The position numbers and the translations under genes were made by a program. From Gammaproteobacteria bacterium (GTDB lineage Bacteria > Pseudomonadota > Gammaproteobacteria > UBA4575), in assembly GCA_022824965.1 (NCBI GenBank), contig JAJDYY010000008.1, forward strand, positions 320,284 through 384,283: a stretch of DNA of 64,000 nucleotides. Direction: 5' to 3'. A model generated the notes under the pieces. The model saw only the letters and a list, made by a program, of their open reading frames with translations. It was not told where the DNA came from and did no database searches. Every line of letters begins with the position of its first letter. Within the stretch, counting starts at the first letter, position 1. Of this stretch, positions 6,138 to 33,638 are shown one piece after another.

Positions 6138-7072
6138 GCGCACGGCACTTTCTCAGCCTGCTGGATCTGGCCCCCGAGACACTGGAGGACCTGCTGGTGC
6201 GCGCGGTCGAGCTCAAGCAATGGCTGCGGGCCGGCAAGGCCCACACCCCGCTGGCGCAAAAGACGCTGGCCATGGTCTTTGACAAGTCCTCCACCCGTAC
6301 CCGCGTGTCGTTTGAAACGGGCATGATCCAACTGGGCGGCCAGGCCCTGTTCCTCTCGCCCCGGGATACCCAGTTTGGACGCGGCGAGCCCATCGAGGAC
6401 AGTGCGCGGGTGCTGTCTCGAATGGTGGATGCCGTTTTGATTCGCACCTATGAGCATGCCCACGTCGAGACGTTTGCCGCACACTCCTCGGTGCCCGTCA
6501 TCAACGGGCTCACGGACCGCTTCCACCCGTGTCAGCTGCTCGCCGACATGCAGACCTGGCTGGAGCATCGGGGCAGCATCCGCGGGGCCACGGTCGCCTG
6601 GGTCGGAGATGGCAACAACATGTGCCATTCCTACATCAATGCGGCGCGCCAGTTCGACTTCAAACTGAACATTGCCTGCCCGAAGCAGTACTCTCCGAAG
6701 GCCTCTGTCCTGGAGCCCGCCGGGGAGCGCGTCCGTCTGATGGATGAGGCTGGCGCTGCGGTGGACCGGGCTGACCTGGTCGTCACCGACGTATGGGCCA
6801 GCATGGGCCAGGAACAGGAAGCGGACGAGCGCCTGGACGTGTTCAGGGCCTACCAGGTGAACGAGTCCCTGATGGAACTGGCCAGCGACGATGCGCTGTT
6901 CATGCACTGCCTGCCTGCGCACCGGGGCGAAGAAGTGACCGAAGGGGTGCTGAACGGCCCGCAAAGCGTGGTCTGGGATGAAGCGGAAAATCGCCTCCAC
7001 GCGCAAAAGGCCCTGCTGGAGATGCTGATGGGAGTGAGCCCATCCCCGGGGTCCTCAACGCCTGTTGGCTAG
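6134..7072 (+). CDS. argF: Ornithine carbamoyltransferase
   Basis: STRTR carbamoyl-phosphate motif, HPCQ and HCLP motifs. 312 aa, translationally coupled to argD. Confidence 0.9.
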
Positions 7073-8044
7073 CACCAGCGAAAAATACTCATCGCCGGGT
7101 TCGAAGTGCATGTGCTCTGCGAGGGCGCTGCCGTCGAGCAGCCGTCGAATGGAGTCCCGGGTGTACTTTCGGCTGATTTCGGTCAGGATCGCCTCACCCG
7201 CCTGTATATTCAGGGTCTCGTTGATCTCCGCCAGGGTGACCTGCTGGGCGTCCCGGGCCACCAGGTACATCTCGATCTGTTCCAGCACCTCCTGGTAGAC
7301 GGCGCGGTGTGAGAAATTCTCAAGCGTGAAATTTCCACCCAGGCGTGTGTTCAGCACCTGCAGCACGTTCAGGTTGAACTGGGCCGTGATGCCCTCGGCA
7401 TCGTCATAGGCCTGCTCAAGGACCTGCCGGTCCTTGACCCGGTCCAGGCCCAGCAACAAGGCATCCCCGGGGTTCATGATCCCGGATAGCCCGGTGAGCA
7501 GCTCCTTCGACTCGGTCTCGGTGAAATTGCCGATCGAGCTGCCGATGAAAACGAACAGCACCGGCCCGTCGAGCCTGGGCAGGGCTTGCAGGGCACTGAG
7601 GTACTCGCCTGCCACGGCCTCAATCTGCAATCCGGGATAGCGGTGCAGCAGGCGTGCGGCGGACTCGATCAGCATCTCCTCGCATACATCGATCGGTGCA
7701 TAGGTGAAGGATCGTGAACCGGCGGTCAGCCTGGAGAGCAGGATTTCAGTCTTCACGGAGGTACCTGCACCCAACTCCACGCAGGCCTGCGGCTGCACGG
7801 CTGCGATGATCTCGTCCGCATGCCGTTCCAGCAGTGCGGACTCGGTGCGTGTCAGGTAGTAGTGCTGGGTCTTGCAGATGGCATCGAACAGCCTTGAGCC
7901 GGCTTCGTCGTAGAAGTACTTGGGTGGCAGGCTGCGCGGTGCGCACAACATGCTGTCCTGAACGTCGTGCTTTAGGGTTTGCAGTGCGTCCTGGCGGGAT
8001 AACGCCCTGATCCGGAAGCGCTCACGGGGCAGGTCCATGTCCAT
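7055..8044 (-). CDS. EgtD-family SAM-dependent methyltransferase (histidine N-alpha-methyltransferase-like, Methyltransf_33)
   Basis: [32 protein letters not shown] matches the EgtD N-terminal signature. The start is chosen at the MDMD ATG at 8044; the ORF track begins upstream at a probable non-start. The 3' end overlaps the argF 3' end by 18 nt (convergent). Confidence 0.7.
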
Positions 8045-16506: not shown

Positions 16507-16725
16507 GTTTGCCCAGGGGCTCGGAACCTTGAAATGCCGTGCAGGTCATGCATGCATAACATCCCCCGCGAGAGGCCGCCGAAGTGCGGATGGTATGGTT
16601 ACTACTGAAAGACAACTATAACTATTTGATATATTGATAGTAACCGATTAGAAGATAATCTAGTTGCCCCCAATGTTGCCCCCAGGTACCGCATGCCAAC
16701 AAGAAGCATTTAGGGGTTCCCTTTC

Positions 16726-18663
16726 TCAGGTCCATACAGTCAGTGAATTTCTGAGTTGTCCAATCGGAAGGAAGTTCTCTTCACACCAACGGAAAAGATA
16801 GTGCCTAGGCTTTGTGGTCAGTACCTGATAAAGCGAGGCTGCCCACTGTCCCCACTCACCGTCGCACCTAGCAAGAATCAACGTGCGAAACATAAGGTTT
16901 GTAGCCTTTAAAGTCTTGGCATCTATCGGAAAATTGCCTGCCCATACTATTGGCTGTGCATTGGCCCAAATTGTATTGACAAAATCTGCAACGATTTTTG
17001 TATTGGATTGAATATCTGCATTTTCTCCACCCACATAGGTACATAGAGCTTCCAGTTGATTCAAGTCTCGGCTTTCATCCTGCTCGAACACTGAAAGAAG
17101 CACTGTGGTGCTTACAGACACATATCCGTGCCGATGCTGCGCGAGATAGACAGCTGCTTCAGCGTAAGATTCGGCAGATATAGTTCCTGCCTGTTCTGCA
17201 CTAAATATTGCAGCTTGAATCCAGACACCCCTTGTGGAAAAGGCTTCTTGGGAATATTGCCGAATTGCAAGGTCCTCACTAACAAGAACGCGGGTCTCGC
17301 CAGCCATAACACCCACACTGAAGGCACCATCTGGAGGAACACGAATCAATCTCTCGCCAAGTTCCGAAAGATTGTTTGGCAATTGCACAGGCTCTACTGA
17401 GCAGTATTCCTCAATGCTTTTTATCAATGACTGCACCGCACTGATCCGTTTGTTCCGGTCTTCAGTGGTTTCAGCATGTCGAAAGAATTGCCCGTCTCGA
17501 AAGTCAAGGCACATCGTATCGCCTTCACCCAGACCAGCATGATCATCGATCATCTCTTTTAGTCGGTTTAGCTCATAAACAGGAATTGCCAAGGGACCAA
17601 GTCGCTCTTTTAACACTGGCAGTACTTTAAGAACTGCTGCATGCCAAGCCGTAAAAGCATCGAGAACTGCACCAGCACGCTCATGTTTCTGGATCACTCT
17701 CAGTGCTTTATCACACTCATCGTGTACACCGAAGCAAACCTTCACTTCTTCGTTTATGGAAACTAGGTATTGCGCAAACGCTATTGCACCGCCTGGCCAA
17801 TCTCCTGCGGCAACAACAAGCGGGACGCCATGTTGCAAGTAGAGATCCGCCTGCTGCCGTGCCATCGCGCTATACCGACGGACTTGCTCCAACACCGGCT
17901 CTATATCATCATCGGCAATGTTTAATGAGGCAAATCCATGTGCTTCAGGAAATCTTTGTCCGAAGTTAGCCGTGAGATGGTGAAATGCCTGTAACCACCA
18001 TGGCTTTAGTTCAGCTACCGACCATGTCTCTTTGACACCTAATGAATTGGTTTTTTCAAACTTATCTCCTATCCTTAACCCCAAACATTTCAAAATGAAT
18101 GAATTGCTATCCGTTTCCGCTTGACCCCATGGTCTGTCCTGAGACTCTCCAATCAATGCTTCGTAATCGCTTCCTTCTGCACTTGTCAGCCGGACCCACA
18201 TACCAGTGCTGACAGTATCACCGATGCCAAGCTCTTGGTCCGATGAAGTTGCCCTCAGTACGAGACCCATAAACTTGAGCACCAGTTCTACATTTGAAAG
18301 GTCTGTGACAAGCGCTTCGTAAGCGATATCGAGAGCACATGCAGGCTCTTCTGAAAAGTCAAAAAGAACATGACTAAGATCGATGCGGTCCATCGAAGCG
18401 CCTGTCAAATTCTCGACTTCCAAACCACTTACCAATTGCCTGATTGCATCCTGGTCATCTATGGCGAAGTATGCCCTTACCACACACAGTAACGTGTAAA
18501 TCTCAGGCCCCTCCTCAAATGCACTCAACAGCGGCGTGATCGCTTTCCCAAAATCACCTTTGTTGAAATGTAAAATTCCTTCCAGCTTCTGAAAGAAGGC
18601 ATTGCATCGAAGATCTGGTGCCAAATCAGAAAAAACCTGGTTGCCCGCTCCCGTACAGGGAAG
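16726..18663 (-). pseudogene. C-terminal portion of a giant Mrr-like nuclease / TPR-repeat protein (downstream frame)
   Basis: 632-aa ORF with helical TPR-like repeat content. Its frame is open upstream to 18663 and overlaps the preceding ORF's frame by about 135 nt that includes an A6/T6 run at 18630..18635. It is probably one gene with the next entry. Confidence 0.5.
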
Positions 18664-20624
18664 TCAAATGCAAGAGCCGTAGCTAGTGTACGAAGTTCCC
18701 CACTGTCACGATCAAGCGCTATCTGTCCATGCAGTGTTTCTATAGTTACATCCAGTAGCCCACGTGCAAGTGCCTCTTCGGCCAGTGTAAGACGGGCAAT
18801 GTATGTGTCATCACCATTCTGAAATGCCAGAGTTGCCGATTCGAATAGTAACTGGGAAATATCTTCTATTCCACGAGTACGTGCTGACTGTGCAAGCACA
18901 GTTAATGCACGTGTATTGCCTACAAAATCTCTACACCCCTTCTCCAGAACGTCACGCACATCCGCTGGCTCCGCCAATTCCATTCGTGCAATAACACCCT
19001 TTGCCTGGACGACACTCTTCTCTGGTTCCGGAAATTGATCCAGGTTTTCATCTGCAAATTCCAAAATTTTAGGCCAGTCCTTATTTGCTATTGCAATCTT
19101 GAACCGAGCAGTAATAACTCCTTCAACATTGTCAGCAAGCCCTGAAATAGTCTCTGAGGCTTGGGCCATATGACCTTGGTCAATTAATAGCGATGCGAGG
19201 TGAACTTTTATGGTTTCTTCGTCGGGAAACCGTCCATGGGCCTGCAGGCCTAGATTGACAGCAGCTTCACTGTTTCCAACAATATGGTACGCCGTCATTA
19301 GATTCATCGGTACCGAAGATAAATCCTTACTGCAGTATATACTTCTCTCTTGAACGCTCTCCCATAACGACTCATATATTGAGATGGCTTCATTCACATC
19401 ATCAACATTACCCAAGGGCTGCCCGCACATGTATCGCTCCCCACCCATAGCCCTTGAAAGCAAGGCATTAGCGCCAAGTTCTTGCAATGCCGCAATTTCA
19501 GGAAATTGACGATAAGCGGATATTGCCTCATCCCACCAGGAATACGGCTCTCCCCGTTCCATGAGCCACTGCACATGAGCCTCGGCAACTTCAGGTGTAT
19601 TCCGAGTTTCTTCAGGTATTCGTGAAATCGGATCGTCAATTGATTCATCATGAATCAGACTTTGGAGATAACACGCTGCAAGGCGTGCATTGCTGGGTTG
19701 ATTCTTTAATTCTTCCTCAGCAAAACTTCTCACGTAATCTCGGTTTCCCAAAAGCAGGAACCCCAGCGCCTTGTTTGCGATTGCTTTAGGATTCTCGGGA
19801 GCAAAATCCCAGGCAGAAATCAATCCAGTAGCCGCTTCCCTTTTCTGCCCAAGTTCCAAGTGACATGCAGCGATGTTTGTTTTGACCCGAAATCGGATAT
19901 GATTTGATGCATCGGAGGCAAGCCTTTTCTCAAGCTTTTGCAGTAATTCAAGGGCGGTTTCAGGCTTACTTTGAATTAGTTCTACATAATCGTTAATGTG
20001 TTTTTCGTGTTCTGAATGAATAGCAGCAGAGTCCGCTATCGCTATTTCACTACTTCTTAAGGAAGCTACTTCTTGGTGACCTACCTCAATTTGGGGAGAC
20101 AGCATATCTGATACCCTCTCGGGGATGTCTCTAATAGCACTTTCTATTTGATCTATCTGCGGCGTATGCGATGGGTCAAAGGCCTTGTGGGCTTCAGGGT
20201 GGCGTTGAATTTCGCGTTGTAATTTATCCCATCCAAAAATATGGATATTGAGATCTAGAGGTCTGGATTTACTTATCTCAAACGAAAGTTTATTTGCCAG
20301 ACTTTGGAGGTTCGCATCGTCAGGAGCGGTTGTGACAATTACATACTCCGTAAGTGGTGGTTCAAATTCTAATGCCTTATTAACCTCAGCACGAACTTCT
20401 TGCTCTAGAAGCTCGCGCCCAACTGCCTTTAATTTACATTGAATGCCAACCGGGCGAGATACATCGCCATCACGATGACCAAAAATATCCACGCCATGCT
20501 GACTTTGTCCTTTGCGGCCGTATTTGCTGGCCATTGGATCGTTCAATAAACAACGCCACAACACCTCATTGCAGTCTTCGAAATCTTGTTCATAAAGTGG
20601 CTTTGGAATCTGTATTGCCATCAC
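18525..20624 (-). CDS. N-terminal portion: Mrr-cat restriction-endonuclease-like domain fused to TPR/helical repeats
   Basis: The N-terminus (FEDCNEVLWRCLL...GQSQHGVDIFGHRDGDVSRPVGIQCKLK...YVIVTTAPDDANLQSLA) matches the Mrr-cat PD-(D/E)xK layout, with a D in GVDI and QCK. The rest is TPR-like helical repeats. No Walker A motif is present. Confidence 0.6.
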   Translation of the reverse strand: MMAIQIPKPLYEQDFEDCNEVLWRCLLNDPMASKYGRKGQSQHGVDIFGHRDGDVSRPVGIQCKLKAVGRELLEQEVRAEVNKALEFEPPLTEYVIVTTAPDDANLQSLANKLSFEISKSRPLDLNIHIFGWDKLQREIQRHPEAHKAFDPSHTPQIDQIESAIRDIPERVSDMLSPQIEVGHQEVASLRSSEIAIADSAAIHSEHEKHINDYVELIQSKPETALELLQKLEKRLASDASNHIRFRVKTNIAACHLELGQKREAATGLISAWDFAPENPKAIANKALGFLLLGNRDYVRSFAEEELKNQPSNARLAACYLQSLIHDESIDDPISRIPEETRNTPEVAEAHVQWLMERGEPYSWWDEAISAYRQFPEIAALQELGANALLSRAMGGERYMCGQPLGNVDDVNEAISIYESLWESVQERSIYCSKDLSSVPMNLMTAYHIVGNSEAAVNLGLQAHGRFPDEETIKVHLASLLIDQGHMAQASETISGLADNVEGVITARFKIAIANKDWPKILEFADENLDQFPEPEKSVVQAKGVIARMELAEPADVRDVLEKGCRDFVGNTRALTVLAQSARTRGIEDISQLLFESATLAFQNGDDTYIARLTLAEEALARGLLDVTIETLHGQIALDRDSGELRTLATALAFDFPVRERATRFFLIWHQIFDAMPSFRSWKEFYISTKVILGKRSRRC

Positions 20625-21038
20625 ATTCTCTAGATAAACTGTCTAAGTTTGTCCTAAAATTTTTTCACCAAACTCGCATTGTTCACGTATTAGAATCTTC
20701 GAAGTCGTTACAATTATTTTGGGAATAGAATGGCTTGGTGCAACTTGGCCCTACCAGCAGACAGCCTTCTGAAGGATAATATAAAAAATTGTAGTGTACC
20801 GAGTTATACATGAAAAGGTTGTAGTCATGGCTTGCTCATCAAGTTCTCACACTCTCCAGGACACACAAACAATGATTATTGACTGCGGATTTATTGCTTT
20901 CTTCAAAGGCAAAGACAATTGGCTAGCCTTAAGCCGGTGCCTCAACACCAAGAACTTTAGCAGGGGAGGTTTTACTTGGACAAAGGCTTTGTACTCGATT
21001 TTTGTATCCATGCTTTGGGAAATATGAAAGGATAATCT

Positions 21039-21992
21039 GTGGGCCATATTTCATTTCAAGAAAAAGAATTCCGATCTGCTGACGAATTATGGGATGCACT
21101 GAGCCCTACCAACAAACTTGTTAGGTCACCAGGCCAACTAATTTACCGTGGACAGGAAAATGCAGAATGGGGCCTCATACCCTCTGTGTTACGGAAAAGC
21201 CCAAGCAATCCTGCAACAATTGCATGGGGTGATAACATAACGGCTGACAACCAAATAAGCACAGAAATTGTGCTACTTGAAACCTTCGCGGGCTTCTGTG
21301 ACCAAGTCGGAGTTAAAATACCTAATGACTCGTTGAAATTTCGAAAAAACGTGCTCGCAGCTGAGAGGCAGGATGAGTATTTCACCAACCCACAATCATG
21401 GCCGAATCCAGCCCTGATTGAAGTGATGGCTCTGGCGCAACAGCACGGAGTGCCAACAAGATTGCTTGACTGGACAAAGAACCCTTATGCGGCCGTATAC
21501 TTTGCGGCTAGTGGAGCCCTCTCAAATGTTGGGAAATGGGGTGAAACTACGGAAACTGATAAATTGGCAGTATGGGTATTGAATATCGATCGAATTTCTG
21601 TATTCCACAGAGTGAATGTTGTCCAGCCTCCTGGTGCAATATCTCCCCACCTTGCTGCCCAGGCTGGCTTGTTCACAGTCTACCCTCACAGCGGGAGCCT
21701 CGGAGAGCCGTTCAATGTCGTTGGGCTTGAAAATCAATTTTCCATACTCCCAGATACTCCTTTGATGAAACTTACGATTCCTGTACAGCAAAGTGCCAGA
21801 TTAAACTGGTTGTGTGCCAAGATTGGGATCACTGGTGCAAGTATTTTCCCTGGTGCTGATGGAGCCGGAAGAGCTGTTATGGACACAGTCAACTCATGGG
21901 CAGCAGCCCGTCACAGTTTACTCTATAAAGCCATGAATCAAATATCAAACAGTCCTGATTGCCAAGATGCAAACAAATCGTCTATCACATAA
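21039..21992 (+). CDS. FRG-domain protein
   Basis: LIYRGQENAEWGLIPSVLR and QHGVPTRLLDWTKNPYAAVYFA match the two signature blocks of the FRG domain (PF08867). Confidence 0.65.
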   Translation: MGHISFQEKEFRSADELWDALSPTNKLVRSPGQLIYRGQENAEWGLIPSVLRKSPSNPATIAWGDNITADNQISTEIVLLETFAGFCDQVGVKIPNDSLKFRKNVLAAERQDEYFTNPQSWPNPALIEVMALAQQHGVPTRLLDWTKNPYAAVYFAASGALSNVGKWGETTETDKLAVWVLNIDRISVFHRVNVVQPPGAISPHLAAQAGLFTVYPHSGSLGEPFNVVGLENQFSILPDTPLMKLTIPVQQSARLNWLCAKIGITGASIFPGADGAGRAVMDTVNSWAAARHSLLYKAMNQISNSPDCQDANKSSIT

Positions 21993-22096
21993 AACATATA
22001 CACTGGAAATTTTCCTTTCGTATGCCTGTGTAGCTTTCCCCGCGACAGGCCTAAGGTGTAGATGATGGTTTACAGAAACTAGAAAAAGGAAATCAA

Positions 22097-22450
22097 ATGC
22101 AACGTGATGATGAATATATCAGAGACCTTCTTTTTGAAATTGAGAAGCAAGACAACTTCCTAGTGATGATTCTTGATACACTTGACGCTTCTCCTGCTGA
22201 AAGAAAAAAATTGTATCACGCTCAGCTTTTATGTGATGCAGGTTACATGATTCAGGTAAGTAATGCAGGCTATCGGTTGACATCTCAAGGACACGACTTC
22301 ATTTCGTCCATCAGGGACGAAGGTATATGGAATAAAACTAAGGCAGCAGTTGCTGAAACAGGTGGTAATGTAACCCTTGAGGTTATAAAAAGTCTTGCTT
22401 ATGGATTCCTCAAGAAGAAAATTTCTACTCATACTGATATAGAGTTATAA
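22097..22450 (+). CDS. DUF2513-family small protein
   Basis: 117 aa: MQRDDEYIRDLLFEIE...LYHAQLLCDAGY...LTSQGHDFISSIRDEGIWNKTK fits the DUF2513 family pattern. An RBS (AAAAAGGAAA) lies 7 nt upstream. Confidence 0.6.
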   Translation: MQRDDEYIRDLLFEIEKQDNFLVMILDTLDASPAERKKLYHAQLLCDAGYMIQVSNAGYRLTSQGHDFISSIRDEGIWNKTKAAVAETGGNVTLEVIKSLAYGFLKKKISTHTDIEL

Positions 22451-22500
22451 GCAGGAGAATGCTTTGCCACTGGCTGGATTAAATTTTTAGTGAGAGGAAC

Positions 22501-22902
22501 TTGAAAGACTGTTGCCGAAACTGCCATTTTCTTGCCCGAAAAAATTATCTGGATAACGTTGCAGGCAGGTATGAACAGGTTCCCTTCGAAAGACGAAAAT
22601 CATTGACCGGTCTTGGGTCATGCTGCTTTCACGGTGAATGGAATAGTACCGGCCTCGCAAGTGAGAGAATAAAGGAAGAGGATGTTCCAAAATTTCTGGA
22701 TCAATCGGGACGCGACTGTTTTTGGCCATACAAAGAAGGCATGTCCTTTGAAGCAGGGAAACTGCGTCAAAGAAAAGAGATTGAGGACAGCAGGACAAGG
22801 AAAAGTTTCTGCCTCATGAAGATAAGCATATTTCTTTCTGCTATAGCAGCACTCAGTGGACTTGTGTATGTCATTGATTTGATCAACACATGGAGTAGCT
22901 AA
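22501..22902 (+). CDS. Cys-rich small protein with C-terminal transmembrane anchor
   Basis: 133 aa with Cys clusters (DCCRNCHF, GSCCFHGEW, DCFWPY) and one C-terminal hydrophobic helix (ISIFLSAIAALSGLVYVIDLI). No family recognised. It lies 51 nt after the DUF2513 gene on the same strand. Confidence 0.45.
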   Translation: MKDCCRNCHFLARKNYLDNVAGRYEQVPFERRKSLTGLGSCCFHGEWNSTGLASERIKEEDVPKFLDQSGRDCFWPYKEGMSFEAGKLRQRKEIEDSRTRKSFCLMKISIFLSAIAALSGLVYVIDLINTWSS

Positions 22903-23004
22903 TCCAGAGACAAACAGCTCTTTCCACTTCACGCTCCAGAAACTTGCCGCAGTGTCAGTAGCAACCTTTACGGTATACCAAGTTATTTCAAAATTTTTCT
23001 GCTT

Positions 23005-23317
23005 ATGGGTACACAAAATTTAGAGGAAGATGACTCGACTTTATTGGAATTGACTAGTCAACAGCACGGCGTACTTGATATTTTGAAAGATAAAGAAACA
23101 GACAAGTACCCCTTGAGCAAGTGGTATCTGGATACACTTTATGCTCTAGATAATGATCTTAACCCGGATCGATTTTGCAAGCAGCCCATTCGCTAAAAGA
23201 GCTACAATAATTCAGGTAGGATTGGCCAGTGATGATGCAATGGTGAAGAGAAATACAAGACAGGCCTTGGAGAATTTGCTTGTATGTGGATATTCCAGTT
23301 TATCGGACTACAAGTAA
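23005..23317 (+). CDS. HEAT-repeat-like small protein, two overlapping ORFs (23005..23196 and 23153..23317); possible frameshifted gene
   Basis: ASDDAMVKRNTRQALENL and DKYPLSKWYLDTLYAL resemble PBS-lyase-type HEAT repeats. The two ORFs overlap in different frames. Confidence 0.3.
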
Positions 23318-23357
23318 AGGAAGATCAGATTCAACTACAGATTATATACAAAATACC

Positions 23358-26300
23358 TCACACCATTTCTTCGGATAACATCTTTGCCTGGGTTAGTACT
23401 AACTCAACCGCACCTTTCTGCTGATCGGGAGGGTATTTGTATTTCCGTAGTAACTGACGAATGAGAATTCTCAGTCTTGCCCGAACACTTTCACGAACTG
23501 CCCAATCCACAGTCAGGTTTTCCCGCAGTTTTTTTGCAATCTCCCTGGCTATCTCAACGAGCACGTCCTCGCCCATCAATTCCTGTGCAGACTCATTCTG
23601 AGCAAGGGCATCATAAAAAGCCTCTTCCTCATCCGACAGATCATGGGCTTCCCTTCGCTTCAGGTCTTCCTGGAATTGCTTCGCCATGGCGATGAGCTCT
23701 TCAATCACCTGTGCCGCTTCAATCGCACGGTTCGCGTACTTACCGATGGATTTCTCGAGAAGCTCACTGAATTTACGTTGCTTGACAACATTGGTGCGGA
23801 ACCTGGTTTTGACCTCGCCCTTAATGAGTCTTTGCAGAAGTTCTACTGCCAGATTCTTGTGCGGCATCTTCATCACTTCTTTCAGGAAATCATCCGAAAG
23901 AATGGAGATATCCGGAGACTCCAGGCCTGCGAGTCTGAAAACATCGGATACGCCCTCACCCACGATTGCCTGGGACAGCAATTGCCGTAATTCAAAGTCC
24001 GTATCTCGAGGTGGCTTCTCTCCGCTTCCGCCTTTTACGAGTGGTGCACGCACTGCCTGATGAAATGCCACTTCAGGGGCCAGTTCCATGGCTTCATCCA
24101 GGGTTCCGCACAATGCAAAGGCCTTAGTCAATTGCAGGACGGTATCGCAGTACCTGCGCTTGCCGTCTTCCTGTTCAAGCACATGATCCATGCAGGCCGG
24201 GATGATCTGAAGCGCGTTTATCCTGTACTCACTCCAGTCCACAGGGTGTAGCAGGTCTCGTGCGACCTGGATCTTCTCTTTAAGGATCCGTAACGCTTCA
24301 GATGAATCAATCGTCGGTCTGCCCTTCCCTTTTGCCGCACTGTAGGTTGCCAAAGCCTCCCTGAGTTGCGGGGCAATGCCGATGTAATCCACCACCAGCC
24401 CACCGGGTTTGTCCTTGAAGACACGATTCACCCTTGCAATGGCCTGTGCCAGATTCGCGCCCTGCATTGGTTTGTCGACATACATGGTCGCAAGACAGGG
24501 TGCATCAAACCCGGTCAGCCACATGTCTCGAACAATAACAATCTTGAGAGGGTCTGAAGGATCTTTGAAACGCTTCTCAAGGTCTTTCTTCTGTGCACGG
24601 CTGGTATGGTGAGGTTGAAGTTCCAGCTTGTCGGATGCAGATGCCGTCATGATGACTTTTATTGCTCCGGACATGTGATCATCAGAATGCCATTCAGGAC
24701 GCAGGGCCACGATCTGGTCATACAGCCTGGCACATATCATACGAGACATGGTCACGATCATGGCTTTGCCAGGCTGTGTCTGACTGCGCATCTCGTAGTG
24801 ATCGATCAGGTCAACCGCCACCTCCTTCAGGCGTGTATCCGTTCCAACGATTGCCTCCAATGCGGACCACTGGCTCTTGGCTTTCTCTTTCTCCTGCTCA
24901 TCCGCTGTCTCACTGTCCAGAATCTCTTCCACTTCCTCATCGATTTGAGGAAGCTCGGCCTGGTTCAGGTTGATCTTGGCCAAGCGTGATTCATAGTAGA
25001 TCGGAACGGTAGCGCCATCATCCACGGCCTGCTGGATGTCGTAGACTGAAACGTAGTTGCCAAAAACCGCTTGGGTGTCGCGATCATCCTGGGAAATAGG
25101 TGTTCCGGTGAACGCGAGGAACGTCGCATTGGGCAAGGCGTCACGCAGGGACTTGGCCAGACCATACTTGATGGCCCCACTCTCGCTATCAATTTTTGCT
25201 TTGAACCCATATTGAGTCCGGTGTGCCTCATCCGCGATCACCACAATATTGTGACGATCCGTGAGCACGGGGAATCGCTCCTCATCCGCATCCAGACCGA
25301 ATTTCTGCATGGTTGTAAAGAAGATGCCGCCCGAAGGCCGATCCATCAAATGTTCCCGCAGTTCTGCACGGGAATCAGCCTGTTTGGGCGTGTCGTTCAG
25401 TAGTTCGCCTGAATTCGCAAAGACATTAAACAACTGGCCATCCAGATCCCTTCTGTCTGTAACCATGACAATGGTGGGGTTCTCCAGCCGAGGCTCCGAG
25501 ATCAAGCGCCCGGCCAGACACGCCATTTCGATACTTTTTCCAGCACCTTGTGTATGCCAGACTACTCCGCCTTTCTTGTCACCCTCCACGTTGCTCGCAG
25601 TCACCACGCTCTCGACTGCTACTTGTACGGCATGGAACTGGTGATAGCCGGCAATCTTCTTGATGAGGGTTCCGTCATCTTCAAATAGACAGAAGTACCG
25701 CAGGTAGTTGAGGAAGATTTCCTTGTTGAAAACTCCCTGGATCAGGGTCTCGAGCTGCTGGTGCTGGCCTAGGGGGTCCAGTTCGACACCATCAATGGTG
25801 CGCCACCGCATGAATCGTTCCCTGTCTGCGGAGATTGACCCCAAACGTGCGTAGATACCGTCTGATATGACCATACAAACGTTATAGCTGAACAGGTCCG
25901 GGATATCCGCCTTGTAAGTCTGTAACTGATCGAATGCGGTCCAGATGTCCGCATCCTCATCCGCACCATTCTTGAGTTCAATGACGGAAAGTGGCAACCC
26001 GTTTACAAACACCAATACATCTGGCCTGCGGTTATGTTTGTGCCCTTGGATCGTGAACTGATTGACGACCAGCCAGTCATTGTTCTCCGGGTCTTCAAAG
26101 TCAATTACTTTGAGTTGTTTGCCGACTTCCTGGTTATCTTCGTGGAAAGTGACCTGGATGCCTTTGGTCAGCCACTCATGCACTTTCCGGTTGCAGGGCA
26201 TCAATGCCGGGATGTTCGGGTTAGTCAATTGAGAAAGTGCCGTGCTGATTGCAGATTTCGGGATATCAGGATTGATGCGAGTCAGTGCTTCCTGCAAGCG

Positions 26301-26447
26301 ATCTTGAAGAATGACTGAACGGTAGTCTTTGCGTTCCGGTTCCTGACCATCCGGGGCAATTTCATACCCGCACTTGTACTGATAGCCGAGTTCCTTAAAC
26401 CAGTCGATGCTTAACAGTTCAACTTGATCTTCGGTCACCAGCGCCAC
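23358..26447 (-). CDS. hsdR: Type I restriction enzyme R subunit
   Basis: 1029 aa with an N-terminal PD-(D/E)xK nuclease region (PDVLVFVNGLPLSVIELK) and SF2 helicase motifs (HTQGAGKS, VIADEAHR). Confidence 0.9.
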   Translation of the reverse strand: MALVTEDQVELLSIDWFKELGYQYKCGYEIAPDGQEPERKDYRSVILQDRLQEALTRINPDIPKSAISTALSQLTNPNIPALMPCNRKVHEWLTKGIQVTFHEDNQEVGKQLKVIDFEDPENNDWLVVNQFTIQGHKHNRRPDVLVFVNGLPLSVIELKNGADEDADIWTAFDQLQTYKADIPDLFSYNVCMVISDGIYARLGSISADRERFMRWRTIDGVELDPLGQHQQLETLIQGVFNKEIFLNYLRYFCLFEDDGTLIKKIAGYHQFHAVQVAVESVVTASNVEGDKKGGVVWHTQGAGKSIEMACLAGRLISEPRLENPTIVMVTDRRDLDGQLFNVFANSGELLNDTPKQADSRAELREHLMDRPSGGIFFTTMQKFGLDADEERFPVLTDRHNIVVIADEAHRTQYGFKAKIDSESGAIKYGLAKSLRDALPNATFLAFTGTPISQDDRDTQAVFGNYVSVYDIQQAVDDGATVPIYYESRLAKINLNQAELPQIDEEVEEILDSETADEQEKEKAKSQWSALEAIVGTDTRLKEVAVDLIDHYEMRSQTQPGKAMIVTMSRMICARLYDQIVALRPEWHSDDHMSGAIKVIMTASASDKLELQPHHTSRAQKKDLEKRFKDPSDPLKIVIVRDMWLTGFDAPCLATMYVDKPMQGANLAQAIARVNRVFKDKPGGLVVDYIGIAPQLREALATYSAAKGKGRPTIDSSEALRILKEKIQVARDLLHPVDWSEYRINALQIIPACMDHVLEQEDGKRRYCDTVLQLTKAFALCGTLDEAMELAPEVAFHQAVRAPLVKGGSGEKPPRDTDFELRQLLSQAIVGEGVSDVFRLAGLESPDISILSDDFLKEVMKMPHKNLAVELLQRLIKGEVKTRFRTNVVKQRKFSELLEKSIGKYANRAIEAAQVIEELIAMAKQFQEDLKRREAHDLSDEEEAFYDALAQNESAQELMGEDVLVEIAREIAKKLRENLTVDWAVRESVRARLRILIRQLLRKYKYPPDQQKGAVELVLTQAKMLSEEMV

Positions 26448-28057
26448 TAGATATCTACCTCTTCAAGAAACTTTTCGGCATCTGAAATGTGGAGTTCACC
26501 CGAGATAAGCCTAGGGAGGAGAATATCGCGGAGCTGGGAAAGACAGTCATTTTCTTGACTCGCAATCTTAATTTTTGCAAATATTGGAAAGCTGATTTCT
26601 TCATAAATTGACATCACGTAATCAGACGGGCGGATCAACTTAAACCTATCAATATCTGATTTACCCAAATGAATGACTGTGGTCGCCGTCTCTGTAGACT
26701 CAACTTCATAAAGCGGTCTTTCCAGCCCGAACTTAAGGAAAGCAGTGGGGATATTTGTATTTGGGATAAATTTACAGATTCGCTGGTTCATCCAAGAGTC
26801 CTTTCCTGTCCAGTAATAACACCTAAATTCACCATCCATCCCGACAACTAGGTCACCTGCTTTGATTAAAGTTCCTTTTGGATGTGCTTCTTCTGTAAAA
26901 ACTTCTGATCCACCTTTTGCAAGGTCTCTAATTCTCACAAGAGGCAATCCTCGCCTGTCAGAATTAAACAACTTGGACTTAAATGGCGCTCCATAAATTA
27001 CTTCACACAAATCGTAGATTGAAGCAATACTCCACCCCTTTGGGATCTCCCCAATCTCCGACTCCACCAAAGTATCAGGGAATAAATCACTGATTTCAGA
27101 CGGAAGACCCGTAGGATGGCCTTCTGCCTTTGCTCGGACAGGGTCAAAGTCAACAAACCATGATTTGAAGATTGCCTTGGCTATCTCTTCAAGGGTTTTG
27201 TTGGTTTTTTGGTTGAGTTCGATTTTGTCGTCGAGGGTGCCGAGGATATGGGCGATGGCACGTTGCTCGGAAAGAGGTGGAAGAGAAATAGCTATATGGT
27301 CTAAAGCTTCAGCAGGCACGCGTTGGCGCCCTGAAGTACCAGTCATCTGACCAATCGCATACTCACGAAACCTGTTCCATCTCGTCAGGTAGTAGGCGAA
27401 ACCACCATCTGTGACATCCGGGCGCCCACGGATAACTATAAATTCGGTAGAGCCATGTGCTGATATCATCTGCTTTGTAGCGTTGTAGCGAGCAATCTTG
27501 CCATTCTCAAGACATGGCGTGATTCGAGCCATGAGCGTGTCGCCATCTAGGAAGCGAGAGCCCCCACCTCTGAATTCACGCTCTTCTATTGCATACGTAT
27601 TTCTTGAATCTCCGTTGATAGCAGCCATGCCAACAAAAGGGTAGGTCTCGCCGCGGACAAGTTGCACCTTCGGATTAACCTCAACCGCTTGACTGAAAGG
27701 CACCTCACACCAATCTGAACTGCTTTCCGGGACAGGAAAAAGTGTTTTGTGCTCTTCTATAACCTGCCTAAAGCCACCACTGACTCGATTCATGTCCACG
27801 ACATCAACTGTATAAGGAAGGCTGGAGTCTTCGAAAGCATCCTGCAGTATATTGATCGTCCTGAAGTCCAACGGCGTATCGCCCTCGACTGCTAAATCAA
27901 GATCAGACGAATCTTTTGTTGTCCAAGTGGCACGGCTGCCAAATACCCATACCTTCACATCACTCGGCAAGTGAGTGCACAGGATATCCTGCACAATTTT
28001 CAAGTGGTCAGAACGAATATCAACGGAACTAACCAAGGGTCCGATTCTTCTTCTCAA
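26447..28057 (-). CDS. hsdS: Type I R-M specificity subunit HsdS with an in-frame N-terminal MNT-type nucleotidyltransferase (HI0073-like) domain
   Basis: Residues 1 to about 100 carry the NTase motif VFGSRATWTTKDSSDLDLAV plus LPYTVDVVD (MNT antitoxin-like). The remainder has two TRDs and the conserved HsdS central and C-terminal coiled-coil repeats. No stop or obvious internal start separates the two parts. Confidence 0.75.
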   Translation of the reverse strand: MRRRIGPLVSSVDIRSDHLKIVQDILCTHLPSDVKVWVFGSRATWTTKDSSDLDLAVEGDTPLDFRTINILQDAFEDSSLPYTVDVVDMNRVSGGFRQVIEEHKTLFPVPESSSDWCEVPFSQAVEVNPKVQLVRGETYPFVGMAAINGDSRNTYAIEEREFRGGGSRFLDGDTLMARITPCLENGKIARYNATKQMISAHGSTEFIVIRGRPDVTDGGFAYYLTRWNRFREYAIGQMTGTSGRQRVPAEALDHIAISLPPLSEQRAIAHILGTLDDKIELNQKTNKTLEEIAKAIFKSWFVDFDPVRAKAEGHPTGLPSEISDLFPDTLVESEIGEIPKGWSIASIYDLCEVIYGAPFKSKLFNSDRRGLPLVRIRDLAKGGSEVFTEEAHPKGTLIKAGDLVVGMDGEFRCYYWTGKDSWMNQRICKFIPNTNIPTAFLKFGLERPLYEVESTETATTVIHLGKSDIDRFKLIRPSDYVMSIYEEISFPIFAKIKIASQENDCLSQLRDILLPRLISGELHISDAEKFLEEVDI

Positions 28058-28466
28058 GCTGTATCAAGAGATAACGTGATTCTGCGAGAAAGTCAGGAGC
28101 ACTGTTTAAAACTTCTTGTGCCTTCTGTTCATCATACGTATGACTTGTGGTGCCTCTGTTGCGGCGATACTCTCTCCAAACAACAAGTTCAGCCTGCACT
28201 AACGACTGTTTGGATGCCTCACGTATCACATCATTAAAAGACATGTCGTCAACCTCTACAGGATTAGCAGAAGCTAGTTCCAGGTAGCGCTTAATCATTT
28301 TAAAGGACAACTCATAGGTAAATTCAAAAGCTTGAATTACAGCCGCCCTCATATGTCGCTTGAGACGAGGCTCAGCCATTGTCAACTCTGAATCATATAT
28401 CTCAAGAGCCTCTTCTAGTTGTGAAATGGCTTGTTTCAACGACGACAGGTCCAAAGGCAAAGGCAT
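28029..28466 (-). CDS. HepT-like HEPN toxin (HI0074 / NTase substrate-binding family)
   Basis: 145 aa with an intact Rx4HxY HEPN motif (RGTTSHTY) and HI0074-family N-terminus (LSSLKQAISQLEEALE). It overlaps the MNT::hsdS start by 29 nt. Confidence 0.7.
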   Translation of the reverse strand: MPLPLDLSSLKQAISQLEEALEIYDSELTMAEPRLKRHMRAAVIQAFEFTYELSFKMIKRYLELASANPVEVDDMSFNDVIREASKQSLVQAELVVWREYRRNRGTTSHTYDEQKAQEVLNSAPDFLAESRYLLIQLEKKNRTLG

Positions 28467-28544
28467 CTTTTATCTCCAATATGTAGGATATGAGCTAGTT
28501 GTTTCTCAAAAGTGATGCACGACTTATTTTCACGTCATCTCAGG

Positions 28545-30101
28545 CTATCCTGATCTTGCAAACCCCAACTTTTTTAGGTTTTCAGCGATAGTCTGATCAA
28601 GCTGAGCACCTTCAACCTGCTGCGTATGCAGTTGCGCAGCCAAGTGTCTCATCTTGTCTTCGAAAGGCTCACCGTCATCCTCTTGTGGCGCAGCCCCAAC
28701 ATAGCGTCCAGGTGTGAGGACAAATCCACTCTTCTCAATCTCATCAATGGATGCCGACTTACAAAAACCCAATACATCCTCGTACTCTTCTCCCTGCTTC
28801 CACGCATGCACTGTATCTGCAATCTTGGCAATGTCTTCGTCAGTCAGGACCCTGTTGACCCGTGTCTCCATCGTTCCCAGCTGACGCGCATCAATAAACA
28901 AGGTCTCCTCACGCCTGCCACGACCATTCGCAGTCTTGTCATTAGTCATAAACCACAGGCATACAGGAATCTGTGTGTTCAGAAACAACTGGCCCGGCAG
29001 TGCTACCATCACTTCCACCACATCACCACGGATCATTGCCTTACGAATCTGGCCTTCGCTGCTTGCGTTCGAACTCATGGAACCATTTGCAAGGACAACG
29101 CCGACCTGTCCTCCTGGTCGCAGCTTCCACAGCATGTGCTGCAGCCATGCGAAGTTTGCATTCCCCACAGGGGGTCTGCCGTATATCCAGCGAGGATCTT
29201 CCTCATACTTCTCTCCACCCCAGTCAGAAATGTTGAAGGGTGGATTTGCCATGATGTAATCGAACTTCAAATCCGGGAACTGGTCCCGTGCAAAGGTATC
29301 CGCGGGTTCTTTACCTAAATCTGCAGCAAATCCCCGAATCGCCAGGTTCATGGCGGCCAGCCGCCAGGTTGTAGGGTTGCTCTCCTGCCCGTAGATGGAG
29401 ATATCGTCCACCCGGCCACCATGTGACTGCACAAACCTTTCACTCTGAACGAACATCCCGCCTGACCCGCAACAAGGGTCATACACCCGACCAGTATGCG
29501 GCGAGAGGATGGCCACCAGGGTTTTCACTACATGTGAAGGGGTATAGAACTGCCCACCCTTCTTGCCCTCGGCTGAGGCAAACTGACCCAGGAAGTACTC
29601 GTAGACCTCGCCCAGCAAGTCACTGGAGTCGTATTTGTCACTGAATCCGATGGTGGAGATCAGATCAATCAGCTCACCCAGTACCCCCGGACCCAGCTGT
29701 GCCCGCCCGAAGCGTTTGTCCAGCTTCCCCCGCAGGGATGGATTTTCGTTCTCTATCAGGGTCATTGCCTTGTCCACAAGGGACCCAATATCAGGTTGCT
29801 TTGCCTTGGCTCTGAGAGATTCCCAACGTGCCTCTTGTGGCACCCAGAAGACATTGTCTTGTGTGTAATAGTCACGCTCCTCAAGCGCTTCTTCGAACTC
29901 AGCAGGGGTTTCGCTTAAAAAATATTCAGACGAGGGCTCTGACACCATGCGCCGGATTTCTTCCTGCTGCTTAATGAAGGTGTCTGAGATGTATTTGAGA
30001 AAGATGAGGCCCAGCACGATGTGCTTGTACTCCGCTGCATCCATCTGCGCGCGAAGCTTGTCCGCAGACGCCCATAACTTTTTCTTTAAGTCATCACCCA
30101 T
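28545..30101 (-). CDS. hsdM: Type I R-M DNA methyltransferase subunit (N6-adenine)
   Basis: HsdM N-terminal domain ([32 protein letters not shown]), AdoMet motif I (DPCCGSGGM) and NPPF catalytic motif. Confidence 0.92.
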
Positions 30102-30166
30102 ATCAGTATCCTCAAGTCACCTGTAACGAGATCAGGCAGGACAAGATAACTATTCAAAACAAGATA

Positions 30167-30722
30167 CTATGGGAATTTAGCCGAACTTCCTAGATCGGGA
30201 TTTTTCGAATGCCGTATGAAAGGCATCCTCAATGTCCTTTGCAGCCCCCTTGTAGCTGGCCCTGCCACGCCGACTTGGGTGTGGGACACAGAAGAGTGAG
30301 CCGGAAAAACGAAGGTGCTGCGCTGCCTTCTATGCCCACCGCCCCTGTGCGATCACGGCAACTGGCAGTGCAATATCCAACAACTGCTGGCAAAGAGGTA
30401 TATTTTCATTAATTGCCTTCATACTAGGCTTCTCACCATATGCTCCAAAAGCATTCCATGGGGTGATGACAGATTTGGGAATACCCAGCCGATCATAAAG
30501 CGATTTACACCATTTGGCCGTCGAATCATTATTTTCGACATCGACGAAGCCCGAAACCACTGCACCGGAACCAGGTGTATGGACATTGCCGCCGGGGTCT
30601 TGTAACAGACTAAAAATTCCACCAGGTGATTCAGCGTGACCTTTTCCGATACGTGGCATCACAATACCTCGTTGCTCAGCGCTTTGGACAATGATGGCAT
30701 TCAACTTATCGTGAACTGTCAT
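30167..30722 (-). pseudogene. UDG-superfamily (MUG/family-2-like) protein disrupted by a frameshift
   Basis: The 130-aa ORF 30330..30722 shows UDG-like blocks (HTPGSG, LGIPKSVITP, LPVAVIAQG). A second frame continues for 51 codons (…FVFPAHSSVSHT…, resembling the MUG VLPNPSGLS motif) to a stop at 30167..30169. The frames switch within a C4/G4 run at 30342..30345. Confidence 0.4.
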
Positions 30723-30890
30723 ACAGGTTGGTTAAATACAGGTTATGGTTTTGTTATTTTAGCAAGCTGATTAGTATCGGGGTGGGTGGAGCAGGTACTG
30801 CACAAACATCACAACCCAAAATTATCTACTACCCTTTGTTTCCGTTAATCAGAGTTGGTTCACCTAACGGGAGATGAGGCAAGATTACTC

Positions 30891-31940: not shown

Positions 31941-32044
31941 CCCAAAACTCAAATTAACGAGAGCAGTGAAATACAGATCTAACTTAGATTAAAAATTTTG
32001 GCACCACTACACCTAATTTGCAGGATTGCATTTAATCCCCAACA

Positions 32045-32257
32045 TCACACCTGCTGCCTGGACTCGATCCATTGGATCACTGTGTGTTCATGCCAGCCGA
32101 CCGAGCGTGCACCGGTCAGCTTGATCTGTTTGGGAAAATCACCCTTGGCGATCTGGGCGTAAATCGTGGAGCGGGAAAGTCCGGTCATGCGCTGGACATC
32201 CTTCAGTCTTACAATCCTGTAGTTCATAGTAGGTTCCTCATACTTTTTTGGTTGCAA
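32045..32257 (-). CDS. alpA: AlpA-family prophage regulatory protein (excisionase-like)
   Basis: MNYRIVRLKDVQRMTGLSRSTIYAQIAKGDFPKQIKL shows the HTH typical of Phage_AlpA. The start may be the internal Met at 32227. Confidence 0.8.
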   Translation of the reverse strand: MQPKKYEEPTMNYRIVRLKDVQRMTGLSRSTIYAQIAKGDFPKQIKLTGARSVGWHEHTVIQWIESRQQV

Positions 32258-32266
32258 TCTTCACAG

Positions 32267-33514: not shown

Positions 33515-33638
33515 CGTTGAAGATGGACAAGCCCGAAGCCTGCCTGAAGTCCTGTCAGGACGTTGAAGATGGAAGCAGGCCAAAGACCTGAATCCTGATG
33601 CCTGGGTACCGCTGTACACAGGCTGGTATTGAAGATGG
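33515..33638. repeat. Three direct copies of (G/A)TTGAAGATGGA (iteron-like)
   Basis: Copies at 33515..33526, 33561..33572 and 33627..33638, with spacings of 46 and 66 bp, inside the 860-bp non-coding region between the two recombinase genes. Confidence 0.55.

What the first reader, a model, noticed from the sequence alone, without database searches (positions are those of the whole stretch)
16726..20624. Giant gene of about 1300 aa (Mrr-cat nuclease N-terminus plus long TPR/helical repeats) split by a frameshift at a T6 run
ORFs 18525..20624 and 16726..18624 are co-oriented. Their reading frames overlap for about 135 nt and both are open there, and the overlap contains an A6/T6 homopolymer at 18630..18635. 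The upstream part begins with a clear Mrr-like PD-(D/E)xK domain (GVDIFG…IQCK). Both parts are TPR-like helical repeats with no P-loop, so this is not an Avs/STAND protein. It could be a single-chain nuclease plus repeat-sensor defense protein. The frameshift could be a sequencing error, a phase-variable switch or a pseudogene.
Basis: partly seen in the sequence, partly recalled or inferred. Interest (0 to 1): 0.75.

Follow-up and report, generated by a model that had tools for sequence, protein, structure and literature searches.

The report
Frameshifted nuclease–TPR–GreA/B-C–PIN defence gene

Summary
ORFs 18525..20624 and 16726..18624 (- strand) overlap in two open frames around a T6 run at 18630..18635.

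Restoring one T gives a 1298-aa protein. It aligns end to end with about 100 single proteins of 1280-1310 aa. The closest relative (90% nt identity) has T7 at exactly this spot, and that is the only frame-breaking difference in 3.9 kb.

The protein belongs to the TPR–GreA/B-C–PIN ("TGP") family defined by Kaur et al. 2021, in the variant with an N-terminal restriction-endonuclease-fold effector:
- **Nuclease:** PD-(D/E)xK fold, with the Avs4 nuclease domain as best PDB match.
- **Repeats:** TPR-like helical repeats.
- **GreA/B-C domain:** fold matches to GreA, GreB, Gfh1 and Rnk.
- **PIN domain:** Pfam PF20698, 56.7 bits.
- **C-terminus:** a helical domain.

The homopolymer is not conserved in the family, although the Phe-Phe it encodes is. 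No RNA structure follows it. The downstream half shows no decay (dN/dS 0.26, no stop codons). The break is therefore very recent or an assembly error, and only the reads can decide. It is not programmed recoding.

The gene lies in a low-GC island at tRNA-Met beside a type I R-M system. An intact 75%-identical paralogue is probably in the same genome. Interest is low to moderate.

The parts
16726..20621 (-). One interrupted gene for a 1298-aa REase-TPR-GreA/B-C-PIN (TGP-family) protein. The start is ATG 20621 and the stop is 16726..16728. It reads through only if one T is added to the run at 18630..18635.
   Evidence: The conceptual fusion matches about 100 single proteins of 1280-1310 aa at 99-100% coverage, the best being P0001 at 89% identity. 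Homologue N-termini align with MAIQIPKP.
18630..18635 (-). T6 run, the site of the frameshift. It encodes the invariant Phe663-Phe664, and the ancestral state is T7 (TTT TTT TCT = Phe-Phe-Ser).
   Evidence: L001 (90% nt identity) has T7 here, and this is the only gap in 3.9 kb that is not a multiple of 3. The intact paralogue L050 also has T7. F663 and F664 are invariant in 38 sequences.
20172..20621 (-). N-terminal PD-(D/E)xK (restriction-endonuclease fold, Mrr-like) effector domain, aa 1-150. The putative catalytic residues are E15, D45, Q61 and K63.
   Evidence: The AF2 model has pLDDT 90. Foldseek against PDB: Avs4 nuclease domain 8dgf_B (TMq 0.55, prob 1.00), then NucS, EcoO109I, Cap4, Can2 and SgrAI. 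E15, D45 and Q61 are invariant and K63 is at least 90% conserved. Mrr_cat_2 is hit in 16 of 38 relatives.
18256..19979 (-). TPR-like helical repeat region, about aa 215-789. The frameshift falls inside it.
   Evidence: Pfam TPR_19 and TPR_14 hits are weak in this protein but significant in relatives (TPR_14 1.5e-12, TPR_2 3.9e-09, TPR_19 in 36 of 38). The alignment is continuous across the junction.
18001..18216 (-). GreA/B C-terminal-type (FKBP-like) domain, aa 803-874. By analogy it is the predicted RNA-polymerase-binding module.
   Evidence: The AF2 model of aa 790-1175 has pLDDT 82. Foldseek against PDB gives GreA, GreA/GreB 2pn0, Rnk 3bmb, Gfh1-RNAP 3aoi and GreB 2p4v, all with prob 1.00 over 82-87 columns. 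Pfam GreA_GreB is hit in 5 of 38 relatives, best E 1.6e-6.
17248..17667 (-). PIN RNase domain of the TGP type, aa 986-1125. The conserved acidic residues D988, E1116 and D1117 are present.
   Evidence: Pfam PF20698 PIN-TPR-GreABC, E 4e-15, 56.7 bits against a cut-off of 27.8. It is hit in 38 of 38 relatives. Fold matches to PIN domains 3ix7, 1v8p, 3i8o and SMG6. Residues were checked.
16729..17247 (-). Conserved C-terminal helical domain, aa 1126-1298, with no assigned family.
   Evidence: It is conserved to the end in full-length homologues (nearly invariant columns up to W1279). No Pfam hit.

Best explanation
The two ORFs are a single gene for a stand-alone anti-phage-type protein of the TPR-GreA/B-C-PIN (TGP) family, in the variant headed by a restriction-endonuclease-fold nuclease. 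It has lost one T from an ancestral T7 tract (TTT TTT TCT, Phe-Phe-Ser), so the frame breaks after residue 664 and the predicted product is a 698-aa nuclease+TPR fragment lacking the GreA/B-C, PIN and C-terminal domains.

Shown: the gene is one unit, the lesion is a 1-nt homopolymer contraction, and all four domain types are present with their conserved residues.

Inferred about timing: the lesion is very recent, because the downstream 632 codons are still open and look selected. It is either a true null allele (my estimate about 55%) or a consensus error in the metagenome assembly (about 40%). Only the reads can separate these.

Inferred about function, from the family model of Kaur et al. 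2021 and the Bab/Agp experiments: the intact protein would dock through its GreA/B-C domain on RNA polymerase, sense phage takeover with help from the TPR array, cut transcripts with the PIN domain, and/or release the N-terminal DNase as an abortive-infection effector.
For: One gene: the fusion hits about 100 single proteins at 99-100% coverage; 43 of 48 genomic homologues are in one frame; the alignment is continuous across the junction with invariant F663 and F664.

Lesion: L001 has T7 where the window has T6, and this is the sole frame-breaking gap in 3.9 kb. The paralogue L050 also has T7.

Recency: dN/dS against L001 is 0.18 upstream and 0.26 downstream, with no stop in the 632 downstream codons.

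Domains: PF20698, 56.7 bits; GreA/Gfh1/Rnk and PIN fold hits; REase fold, best match the Avs4 nuclease domain; Mrr_cat_2 and GreA_GreB Pfam hits in relatives.

Family description, including REase heads: PMC8195603. Experimental member: Agp gives anti-T5 abortive infection, and a GreA/B-C mutation abolishes signalling: bioRxiv 10.1101/2024.11.07.622273.

Defence context: a low-GC island next to an integrase and tRNA-Met, carrying type I R-M, FRG and DUF2513 genes. Relatives lie next to CBASS HORMA/Trip13 genes and an SMC-like ATPase.

Favouring a real mutation: the assembly keeps other runs of 7 nt or more in frame inside intact genes, and no other homopolymer-split gene is seen in 64 kb. Independent frame breaks occur in Illumina isolate genomes of the family, L036 and L042. 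An intact paralogue, probably in the same genome, would make loss tolerable.
Against: No reads are available, and the only two records carrying this allele come from one sample, so the deletion has no independent confirmation. The complete absence of decay downstream is equally what an assembly error would give. The window branch has somewhat more amino-acid changes downstream than the L001 branch (33 vs 18, synonymous 22 vs 17), but I ran no statistical test on these counts and treat them as not decisive either way. PADLOC has no model for this protein. No REase-headed TGP protein has been tested experimentally, so the mechanism is by analogy only. RNA polymerase binding by the GreA/B-C domain of any TGP protein is still inferred.
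Confidence: 0.9

Rival explanations
1. Assembly or sequencing artefact: the organism carries an intact T7 gene, and the consensus dropped one T in the homopolymer.
For: The lesion is exactly the commonest type of consensus error. The downstream 632 codons are open with dN/dS 0.26. Other split family members are found on low-coverage long-read contigs (L055 '1x', L056). The allele exists only in records from a single sample.
Against: None of the other 40 homopolymers of 6 nt or more in the window, including nine of 7-8 nt, lies in the overlap of two large co-oriented ORFs. The window contains no N. The record is named as a scaffold, which I take as a hint of a short-read assembly, where T6/T7 errors are rare; this is my inference from the naming, not a verified fact.
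Confidence: 0.4
2. Functional recoding or a phase-variable switch: the T tract toggles between T6 and T7, or ribosomes or RNA polymerase slip by -1/+1 on it, to keep a toxic abortive-infection protein at a low or switchable level.
For: A -1 ribosomal slip on U6, or one extra U in the transcript, would regenerate exactly the ancestral Phe-Phe-Ser reading. T7 is retained in both close relatives. The Agp/Bab pair is toxic when overexpressed.
Against: The tract is not conserved. Across 43 loci the Phe-Phe codons give T runs of 2-7, and TTCTTC is the commonest. The heptamer G UUU UUU is not a canonical X XXY YYZ slippery site in the upstream frame (sequence). The 121 nt starting at the run fold no better than shuffles (z = -0.40). 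The flanks are almost identical in L001, where the gene is simply in frame. From general knowledge, 6-7 nt A/T tracts are shorter than typical contingency loci and than tracts giving efficient transcriptional slippage (at least 8-9 nt).
Confidence: 0.05
3. [quoted passage not shown]
For: Both ORFs are long and open. A gene caller annotated products of 698 aa and 555 aa.
Against: Homologues are single chains. The break lies inside a conserved helical repeat at an invariant Phe-Phe. Neither candidate start of the second ORF (TTG 18624, ATG 18393) has a clear Shine-Dalgarno sequence, and the called start would delete 77 conserved residues. Breaks in other members occur at other positions.
Confidence: 0.02

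Closest known systems
TPR-GreA/B-C-PIN ('TGP') conflict-system proteins, REase-headed variant (Kaur, Iyer, Burroughs & Aravind, eLife 2021, PMC8195603; Pfam PF20698)
   Same: Same constant core in the same order: TPR repeats, a GreA/B-C domain, then the PF20698-type PIN domain. The N-terminal effector slot is variable, and REase is explicitly listed among 13 alternatives. It is a stand-alone gene with few conserved neighbours, found in defence islands.
   Different: Nothing architectural. This copy is frameshifted. The subfamily (about 1300 aa, found in Alphaproteobacteria, Acidobacteriota, Latescibacterota, Longimicrobiales, Chloroflexi, Nitrospirota and this Gammaproteobacteria-like MAG) has no experimental data.
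Agp of the Bab/Agp abortive-infection system, E. coli ECOR25 (bioRxiv 10.1101/2024.11.07.622273)
   Same: The same TPR-GreA/B-C-PIN core. It is the only member shown to protect against phage (T5 and relatives), and a GreA/B-C mutation (S628L) abolishes signalling.
   Different: Agp has an N-terminal BASS11 amyloid motif that activates a separate pore-type partner, Bab. Here the N-terminus is itself an enzyme (a PD-(D/E)xK nuclease) and no Bell/Bab-type partner gene is adjacent. I did not align this protein with Agp directly.
Avs4 (AVAST type 4) N-terminal Mrr-like nuclease effector, PDB 8dgf
   Same: It is the best solved-structure match to the N-terminal domain (TMq 0.55, prob 1.00). The logic is also shared: a nuclease effector fused to a large TPR-type sensor array.
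   Different: Avs4 is a STAND NTPase. This protein has no Walker A motif or NTPase domain and instead carries GreA/B-C and PIN domains. It is not a member of that family.
GreA/GreB/Gfh1/Rnk secondary-channel factors of RNA polymerase
   Same: The aa 803-874 domain has the GreA/B C-terminal fold. In the Gre factors this is the domain that anchors them on the RNA polymerase beta' rim helices (PMC8195603).
   Different: There is no N-terminal coiled-coil finger, so transcript-cleavage stimulation of the Gre type is not expected. Here the domain is embedded in a 1300-aa multidomain protein.

Membership tests
TPR-GreA/B-C-PIN (TGP) family (Kaur et al. 2021) | C-terminal PIN domain of the family-specific type (Pfam PF20698) | tested here: met
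   E 4e-15, 56.7 bits against a gathering score of 27.8, covering ORF2 aa 320-459 and profile positions 1-137 of 138. All 38 aligned relatives hit it. PIN fold matches in PDB.
TPR-GreA/B-C-PIN (TGP) family (Kaur et al. 2021) | GreA/B C-terminal-type domain between the TPR array and the PIN domain | tested here: met
   Model of aa 790-1175 (pLDDT 82): GreA, GreB, Gfh1 and Rnk C-terminal domains at prob 1.00 over 82-87 columns. Pfam PF01272 is hit in 5 of 38 relatives, best E 1.6e-6. There is no direct Pfam hit in this sequence.
TPR-GreA/B-C-PIN (TGP) family (Kaur et al. 2021) | TPR repeat array upstream of the GreA/B-C domain | tested here: met
   TPR_19 and TPR_14 are below the gathering score in this protein, but TPR families are significant in aligned relatives (TPR_19 in 36 of 38, TPR_14 at 1.5e-12), and the region aligns throughout.
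TPR-GreA/B-C-PIN (TGP) family (Kaur et al. 2021) | Variable N-terminal effector or adaptor domain (REase is one of 13 listed) | tested here: met
   PD-(D/E)xK fold with conserved E15, D45 and Q61-x-K63. The paper text lists REase.
TPR-GreA/B-C-PIN (TGP) family (Kaur et al. 2021) | Mostly stand-alone gene with few conserved neighbours, in a defence context | tested here: met
   The FRG neighbour is kept only in the closest relative L001 and is absent from the other 47 loci. Neighbours differ in L050 and L051. The window locus lies beside a type I R-M system in an integrase-bearing island.
TPR-GreA/B-C-PIN (TGP) family (Kaur et al. 2021) | Anti-phage activity and RNA polymerase engagement | not testable with these tools
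   Only Agp has been tested. RNA polymerase binding is a prediction even for Agp.
Mrr_cat / Mrr_cat_2 restriction endonuclease families (Pfam PF04471, PF13156) | Sequence match to the family profile at or above the curated threshold | tested here: inconclusive
   No hit at E<=1 for this protein. 16 of 38 relatives hit Mrr_cat_2 (best E 1.4e-4) and 4 of 38 hit Mrr_cat (best E 0.0065). The PDB profile search found nothing. The fold and the D...QxK motif agree. It is best described as PD-(D/E)xK, Mrr-like.
Avs / STAND NTPase defence proteins | Central STAND (P-loop) NTPase module | tested here: not met
   No [AG]xxxxGK[ST] motif in the 1298 aa. No NTPase family in the Pfam scans of this protein, nor among the 25 families most often matched in the scan of 38 relatives.
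Programmed -1 frameshift / contingency (phase-variable) locus | Conserved slippery or repeat tract at the site, with a stimulatory element downstream | tested here: not met
   The T-run length ranges from 2 to 7 across 43 loci while Phe-Phe stays invariant. Downstream RNA fold z = -0.40. The orthologue is in frame with near-identical flanks.

The most novel reading that the evidence does not exclude
The T6/T7 tract could be a functional low-rate switch. In a genome that keeps a second, intact TGP paralogue, this copy would be held 'off' by a one-base contraction. It could revert through T-tract slippage, or be expressed at a trickle through -1 ribosomal or transcriptional slippage that regenerates the exact ancestral Phe-Phe-Ser reading. 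That would dose or bet-hedge a toxic abortive-infection nuclease.
Probability: 0.05. Interest if true: 0.55.

Novelty: new member of a known kind. Interest (0 to 1): 0.25.

Why it matters
The finding adds a correctly reconstructed, though frameshifted, member to the REase-headed branch of the TGP family. It also shows that this branch is widespread: 48 genomic loci across at least six phyla, and about 100 full-length proteins in metagenomes. That branch has never been tested experimentally.

The practical value lies in annotation. The 698-aa and 555-aa 'hypothetical proteins' in the public record should be merged and flagged as a frameshifted TGP gene. PADLOC 2.0 has no model for this family.

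The family poses an open and interesting question: is hijacked RNA polymerase sensed through a Gre-like domain? This particular locus does not make that question more testable than its intact relatives do (P0001, P0003).

Tried and rejected
- **PADLOC scan of both ORFs:** no hit.
- **NCBIfam:** only sub-threshold TPR matches.
- **Profile search of the N-terminal domain against PDB sequences:** nothing at E<=10. The fold search was needed instead.
- **FRG-domain neighbour as a partner gene:** rejected. It is present only in the closest relative L001 and absent from 47 other loci. The FRG+DUF2513 pair also occurs without a TGP gene (L053).
- **Independent copies of this allele:**
  - The exact 698-aa and 555-aa products occur only in the source sample's two records.
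  - A T6/T7-tolerant DNA pattern found nothing in JGI metagenomes.
  - The HsdR and FRG cluster mates lie in other contexts.
- **BioSample SAMN22237329 in the paper library:** no paper, so the sequencing platform is unknown.
- **Stimulatory RNA structure after the T run:** none.
- **Direct repeat of the tRNA-Met end at the far island boundary (16.0-17.0 kb):** no exact match of 12 nt or more.
- **Same-site breaks in other truncated family members (P0116, P0109):** the breaks are at other positions, on long-read-style contigs, one of them labelled 1x.
- **Literature search for further tested TGP systems:** the hits were irrelevant, because 'grea' also matches 'great'.
Full report
**Observation.** The window holds two co-oriented ORFs on the - strand exactly as described: 18525..20624 (699 aa) and 16726..18624 (632 aa). 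The - strand reads ...GCA ACC AGG TTT TTT CTG ATT TGG..., so the T6 run occupies 18635..18630. The downstream frame is open from 18663 and the upstream frame ends at 18525, which leaves both frames open over 139 nt. Among the 41 homopolymers of 6 nt or more in the 64 kb, this is the only one lying in the overlap of two large co-oriented open frames. Adding one T gives a single 1298-aa product reading ...RERATRFF|SDLAPDLRCNAFFQKLEGILHFNKG....

**One gene, and the exact lesion.**
- The conceptual fusion hits 198 proteins. About 100 of the best 120 are single chains of 1280-1310 aa covering 99-100% of the query. The best is P0001 (1295 aa, 89% identity).
- In a 38-sequence alignment the junction is seamless. 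F663 and F664 are invariant, and the consensus continues RFFExL....R.L..FQ.LEGILHFNRG into what the window encodes in the second frame.
- The DNA of P0001's gene (L001) is 90% identical over 3.9 kb. The only gap that is not a multiple of three is one T: L001 has AGG TTTTTTT CTG (T7) where the window has T6, with near-identical flanks.
- The 75%-identical paralogue (L050) also has T7 (AAG TTT TTT TCC).
- The lesion is therefore a T7 to T6 contraction in Phe-Phe-Ser codons.
- Of 48 loci in species-representative genomes, 43 encode the protein in one frame. Three (L036, L041, L042) change frame at other positions that are not homopolymers, and two of these are Mesorhizobium isolate assemblies.

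**Programmed recoding or phase variation is unlikely.**
- Across 43 loci the Phe-Phe dipeptide is conserved, but the T run it creates ranges from 2 to 7 nt. TTCTTC is the commonest form. Selection therefore acts on the protein, not on a slippery tract.
- In the upstream frame the site reads G UUU UUU C, which is not a canonical X XXY YYZ heptamer (sequence).
- The 121 nt from the run onward fold no better than shuffled controls (z = -0.40).
- A -1 slip would restore the ancestral reading, so trace read-through cannot be excluded. Nothing suggests it has been selected for.

**Age of the lesion.** Against L001, dN/dS is 0.18 upstream and 0.26 downstream of the break, and the 632 downstream codons contain no stop. 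With L050 and L051 as outgroups, the window branch has 33 amino-acid and 22 synonymous changes downstream, against 18 and 17 on the L001 branch. This is at most a weak hint of relaxed selection, and I did not test it statistically. The break is either very young or not real.

**Real or artefact?**
- The window is identical to ENA ERZ23491646 KELL22-1_SAMN22237329_METAG-scaffold_9. The same products are also on an NCBI MAG contig of 798,446 bp.
- The gene caller there split the gene into 698-aa and 555-aa products.
- No other record carries either product, and no near-identical intact allele exists in the protein collection: the top hit is 89% identical. Independent confirmation is therefore lacking.
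- For a real mutation: the assembly keeps other runs of 7-8 nt in frame and shows no other homopolymer-split gene in the 64 kb. Genuine frame breaks occur in isolate genomes of the family. An intact paralogue, P0003, is reported on a contig of the same length (798,446 bp) and in the same metagenome, so the genome probably retains a working copy.
- For an artefact: this is the classic type of consensus error, the downstream half shows no decay, and other split members sit on low-coverage long-read contigs.
- My estimate is about 55% real, 40% artefact and 5% functional switch.

**What the protein is.**
- **N-terminal domain (aa 1-150).** An alignment-based AlphaFold model has pLDDT 90. Its best PDB matches are PD-(D/E)xK nucleases: the Avs4 nuclease domain 8dgf_B (TMq 0.55, prob 1.00), then NucS, EcoO109I, Cap4, Can2 and SgrAI. 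E15, D45 and Q61 are invariant and K63 is nearly so. This protein gives no Pfam Mrr_cat hit, but 16 of 38 relatives hit Mrr_cat_2 weakly.
- **TPR-like region (aa about 215-789).** The hits are weak here and significant in relatives.
- **GreA/B-C domain.** A model of aa 790-1175 (pLDDT 82) matches the C-terminal domains of GreA, GreB, Gfh1 and Rnk at prob 1.00 for aa 803-874.
- **PIN domain.** The same model matches PIN domains (3ix7, PAE2754, SMG6) in its second half. Pfam PF20698 'PIN domain associated with the TPR-GreAB-C-PIN system' scores 56.7 bits against a cut-off of 27.8 at aa 986-1125. The conserved acidic residues D988, E1116 and D1117 are intact.
- **C-terminal domain (aa 1126-1298).** It is conserved but has no assigned family.
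- **No P-loop.** There is no Walker A motif.

**Comparison with what is known.**
- This is the architecture that Kaur et al. 2021 (PMC8195603) defined: a constant TPR-GreA/B-C-PIN core with one of 13 alternative N-terminal effectors, explicitly including REase. They describe it as a mostly stand-alone gene.
- The one tested member, Agp, has an amyloid motif in place of an enzyme head. Together with Bab it confers abortive infection against T5, and a GreA/B-C point mutation abolishes signalling.
- All testable defining features of the family are met here (see the membership table).
- Relatives lie in variable defence neighbourhoods: CBASS HORMA/Trip13/Cap8 genes in L051, an SMC-like ATPase in L050, and R-M genes in L001 and L056.

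**Context in the window.**
- The gene sits at the edge of a low-GC (43-53%) island spanning about 16.6-35.5 kb, in a 58-62% GC genome.
- The island is bounded by a tyrosine integrase (34113..35381) next to tRNA-Met (35467..35543).
- It carries a type I R-M operon (hsdR 23358..26447, hsdS fusion 26447..28057, hsdM 28545..30101), a DUF2513 gene, and an FRG gene transcribed divergently from the TGP gene.
- L001 has the same integrase, FRG and TGP genes at 83-90% nt identity but different R-M cargo. Its host flanks gave no nucleotide match to the window's flanks in the default blastn run, so the island appears to be mobile.

**Verdict.** The protein is not a new architecture, and the frameshift is a trivial one-base homopolymer contraction of uncertain reality. 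Novelty: a new member of a known, computationally defined family. Interest is low to moderate.

Noticed in passing
window 16600..35543: A low-GC (43-53%) genomic island lies in a 58-62% GC genome. It has a tyrosine integrase (34113..35381) adjacent to tRNA-Met (35467..35543) and a second integrase-like gene (32267..33247). L001 shares the integrase, FRG and TGP genes at 83-90% nt identity but carries different restriction-modification cargo. No exact att repeat of 12 nt or more was found at the 16.0-17.0 kb end.
   Followed up: partly
window 21039..22450; L053 4409..5819: An FRG-domain gene (317 aa) followed by a DUF2513 gene (117 aa) recurs as a pair in an unrelated defence island (L053), next to GmrSD and type IIG enzymes and without a TGP gene. 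This may be a small defence module of its own.
   Followed up: partly
window 26447..28466; L054 5740..7787: The type I R-M specificity subunit is fused at its N-terminus to a Pol-beta-type nucleotidyltransferase domain. It is preceded by a small NTase_sub_bind (HEPN-like) gene at about 28029..28466. This looks like an MNT/HEPN-type toxin-antitoxin pair embedded in the hsd operon, and the same arrangement occurs in another organism (L054).
   Followed up: no
L050 8001..11891 (same metagenome; probably the same 798,446-bp MAG contig): An intact 1296-aa paralogue (P0003, 75% identical) of the frameshifted gene lies in its own low-GC patch, next to an SMC_N/AAA_23 ATPase gene. It also has T7 at the Phe-Phe-Ser site.
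   Followed up: partly
L036 ~7590..7611; L042 ~6436..6519; L041 ~3637..3661: Three other family members in species-representative genomes change frame at different positions that are not homopolymers. Two are Mesorhizobium isolates. This suggests recurrent natural inactivation of these genes.
   Followed up: partly
proteins P0106, P0047, P0048: Some relatives covering 99-100% of the query carry extra modules. P0106 (1373 aa) has HNH domains (PF01844, PF14279). P0047 (2086 aa) and P0048 (1610 aa) have much longer TPR regions.
   Followed up: no
window 22501..22902: A 133-aa ORF with no Pfam match lies between the DUF2513 gene and hsdR. Its status as a gene is unknown.
   Followed up: no
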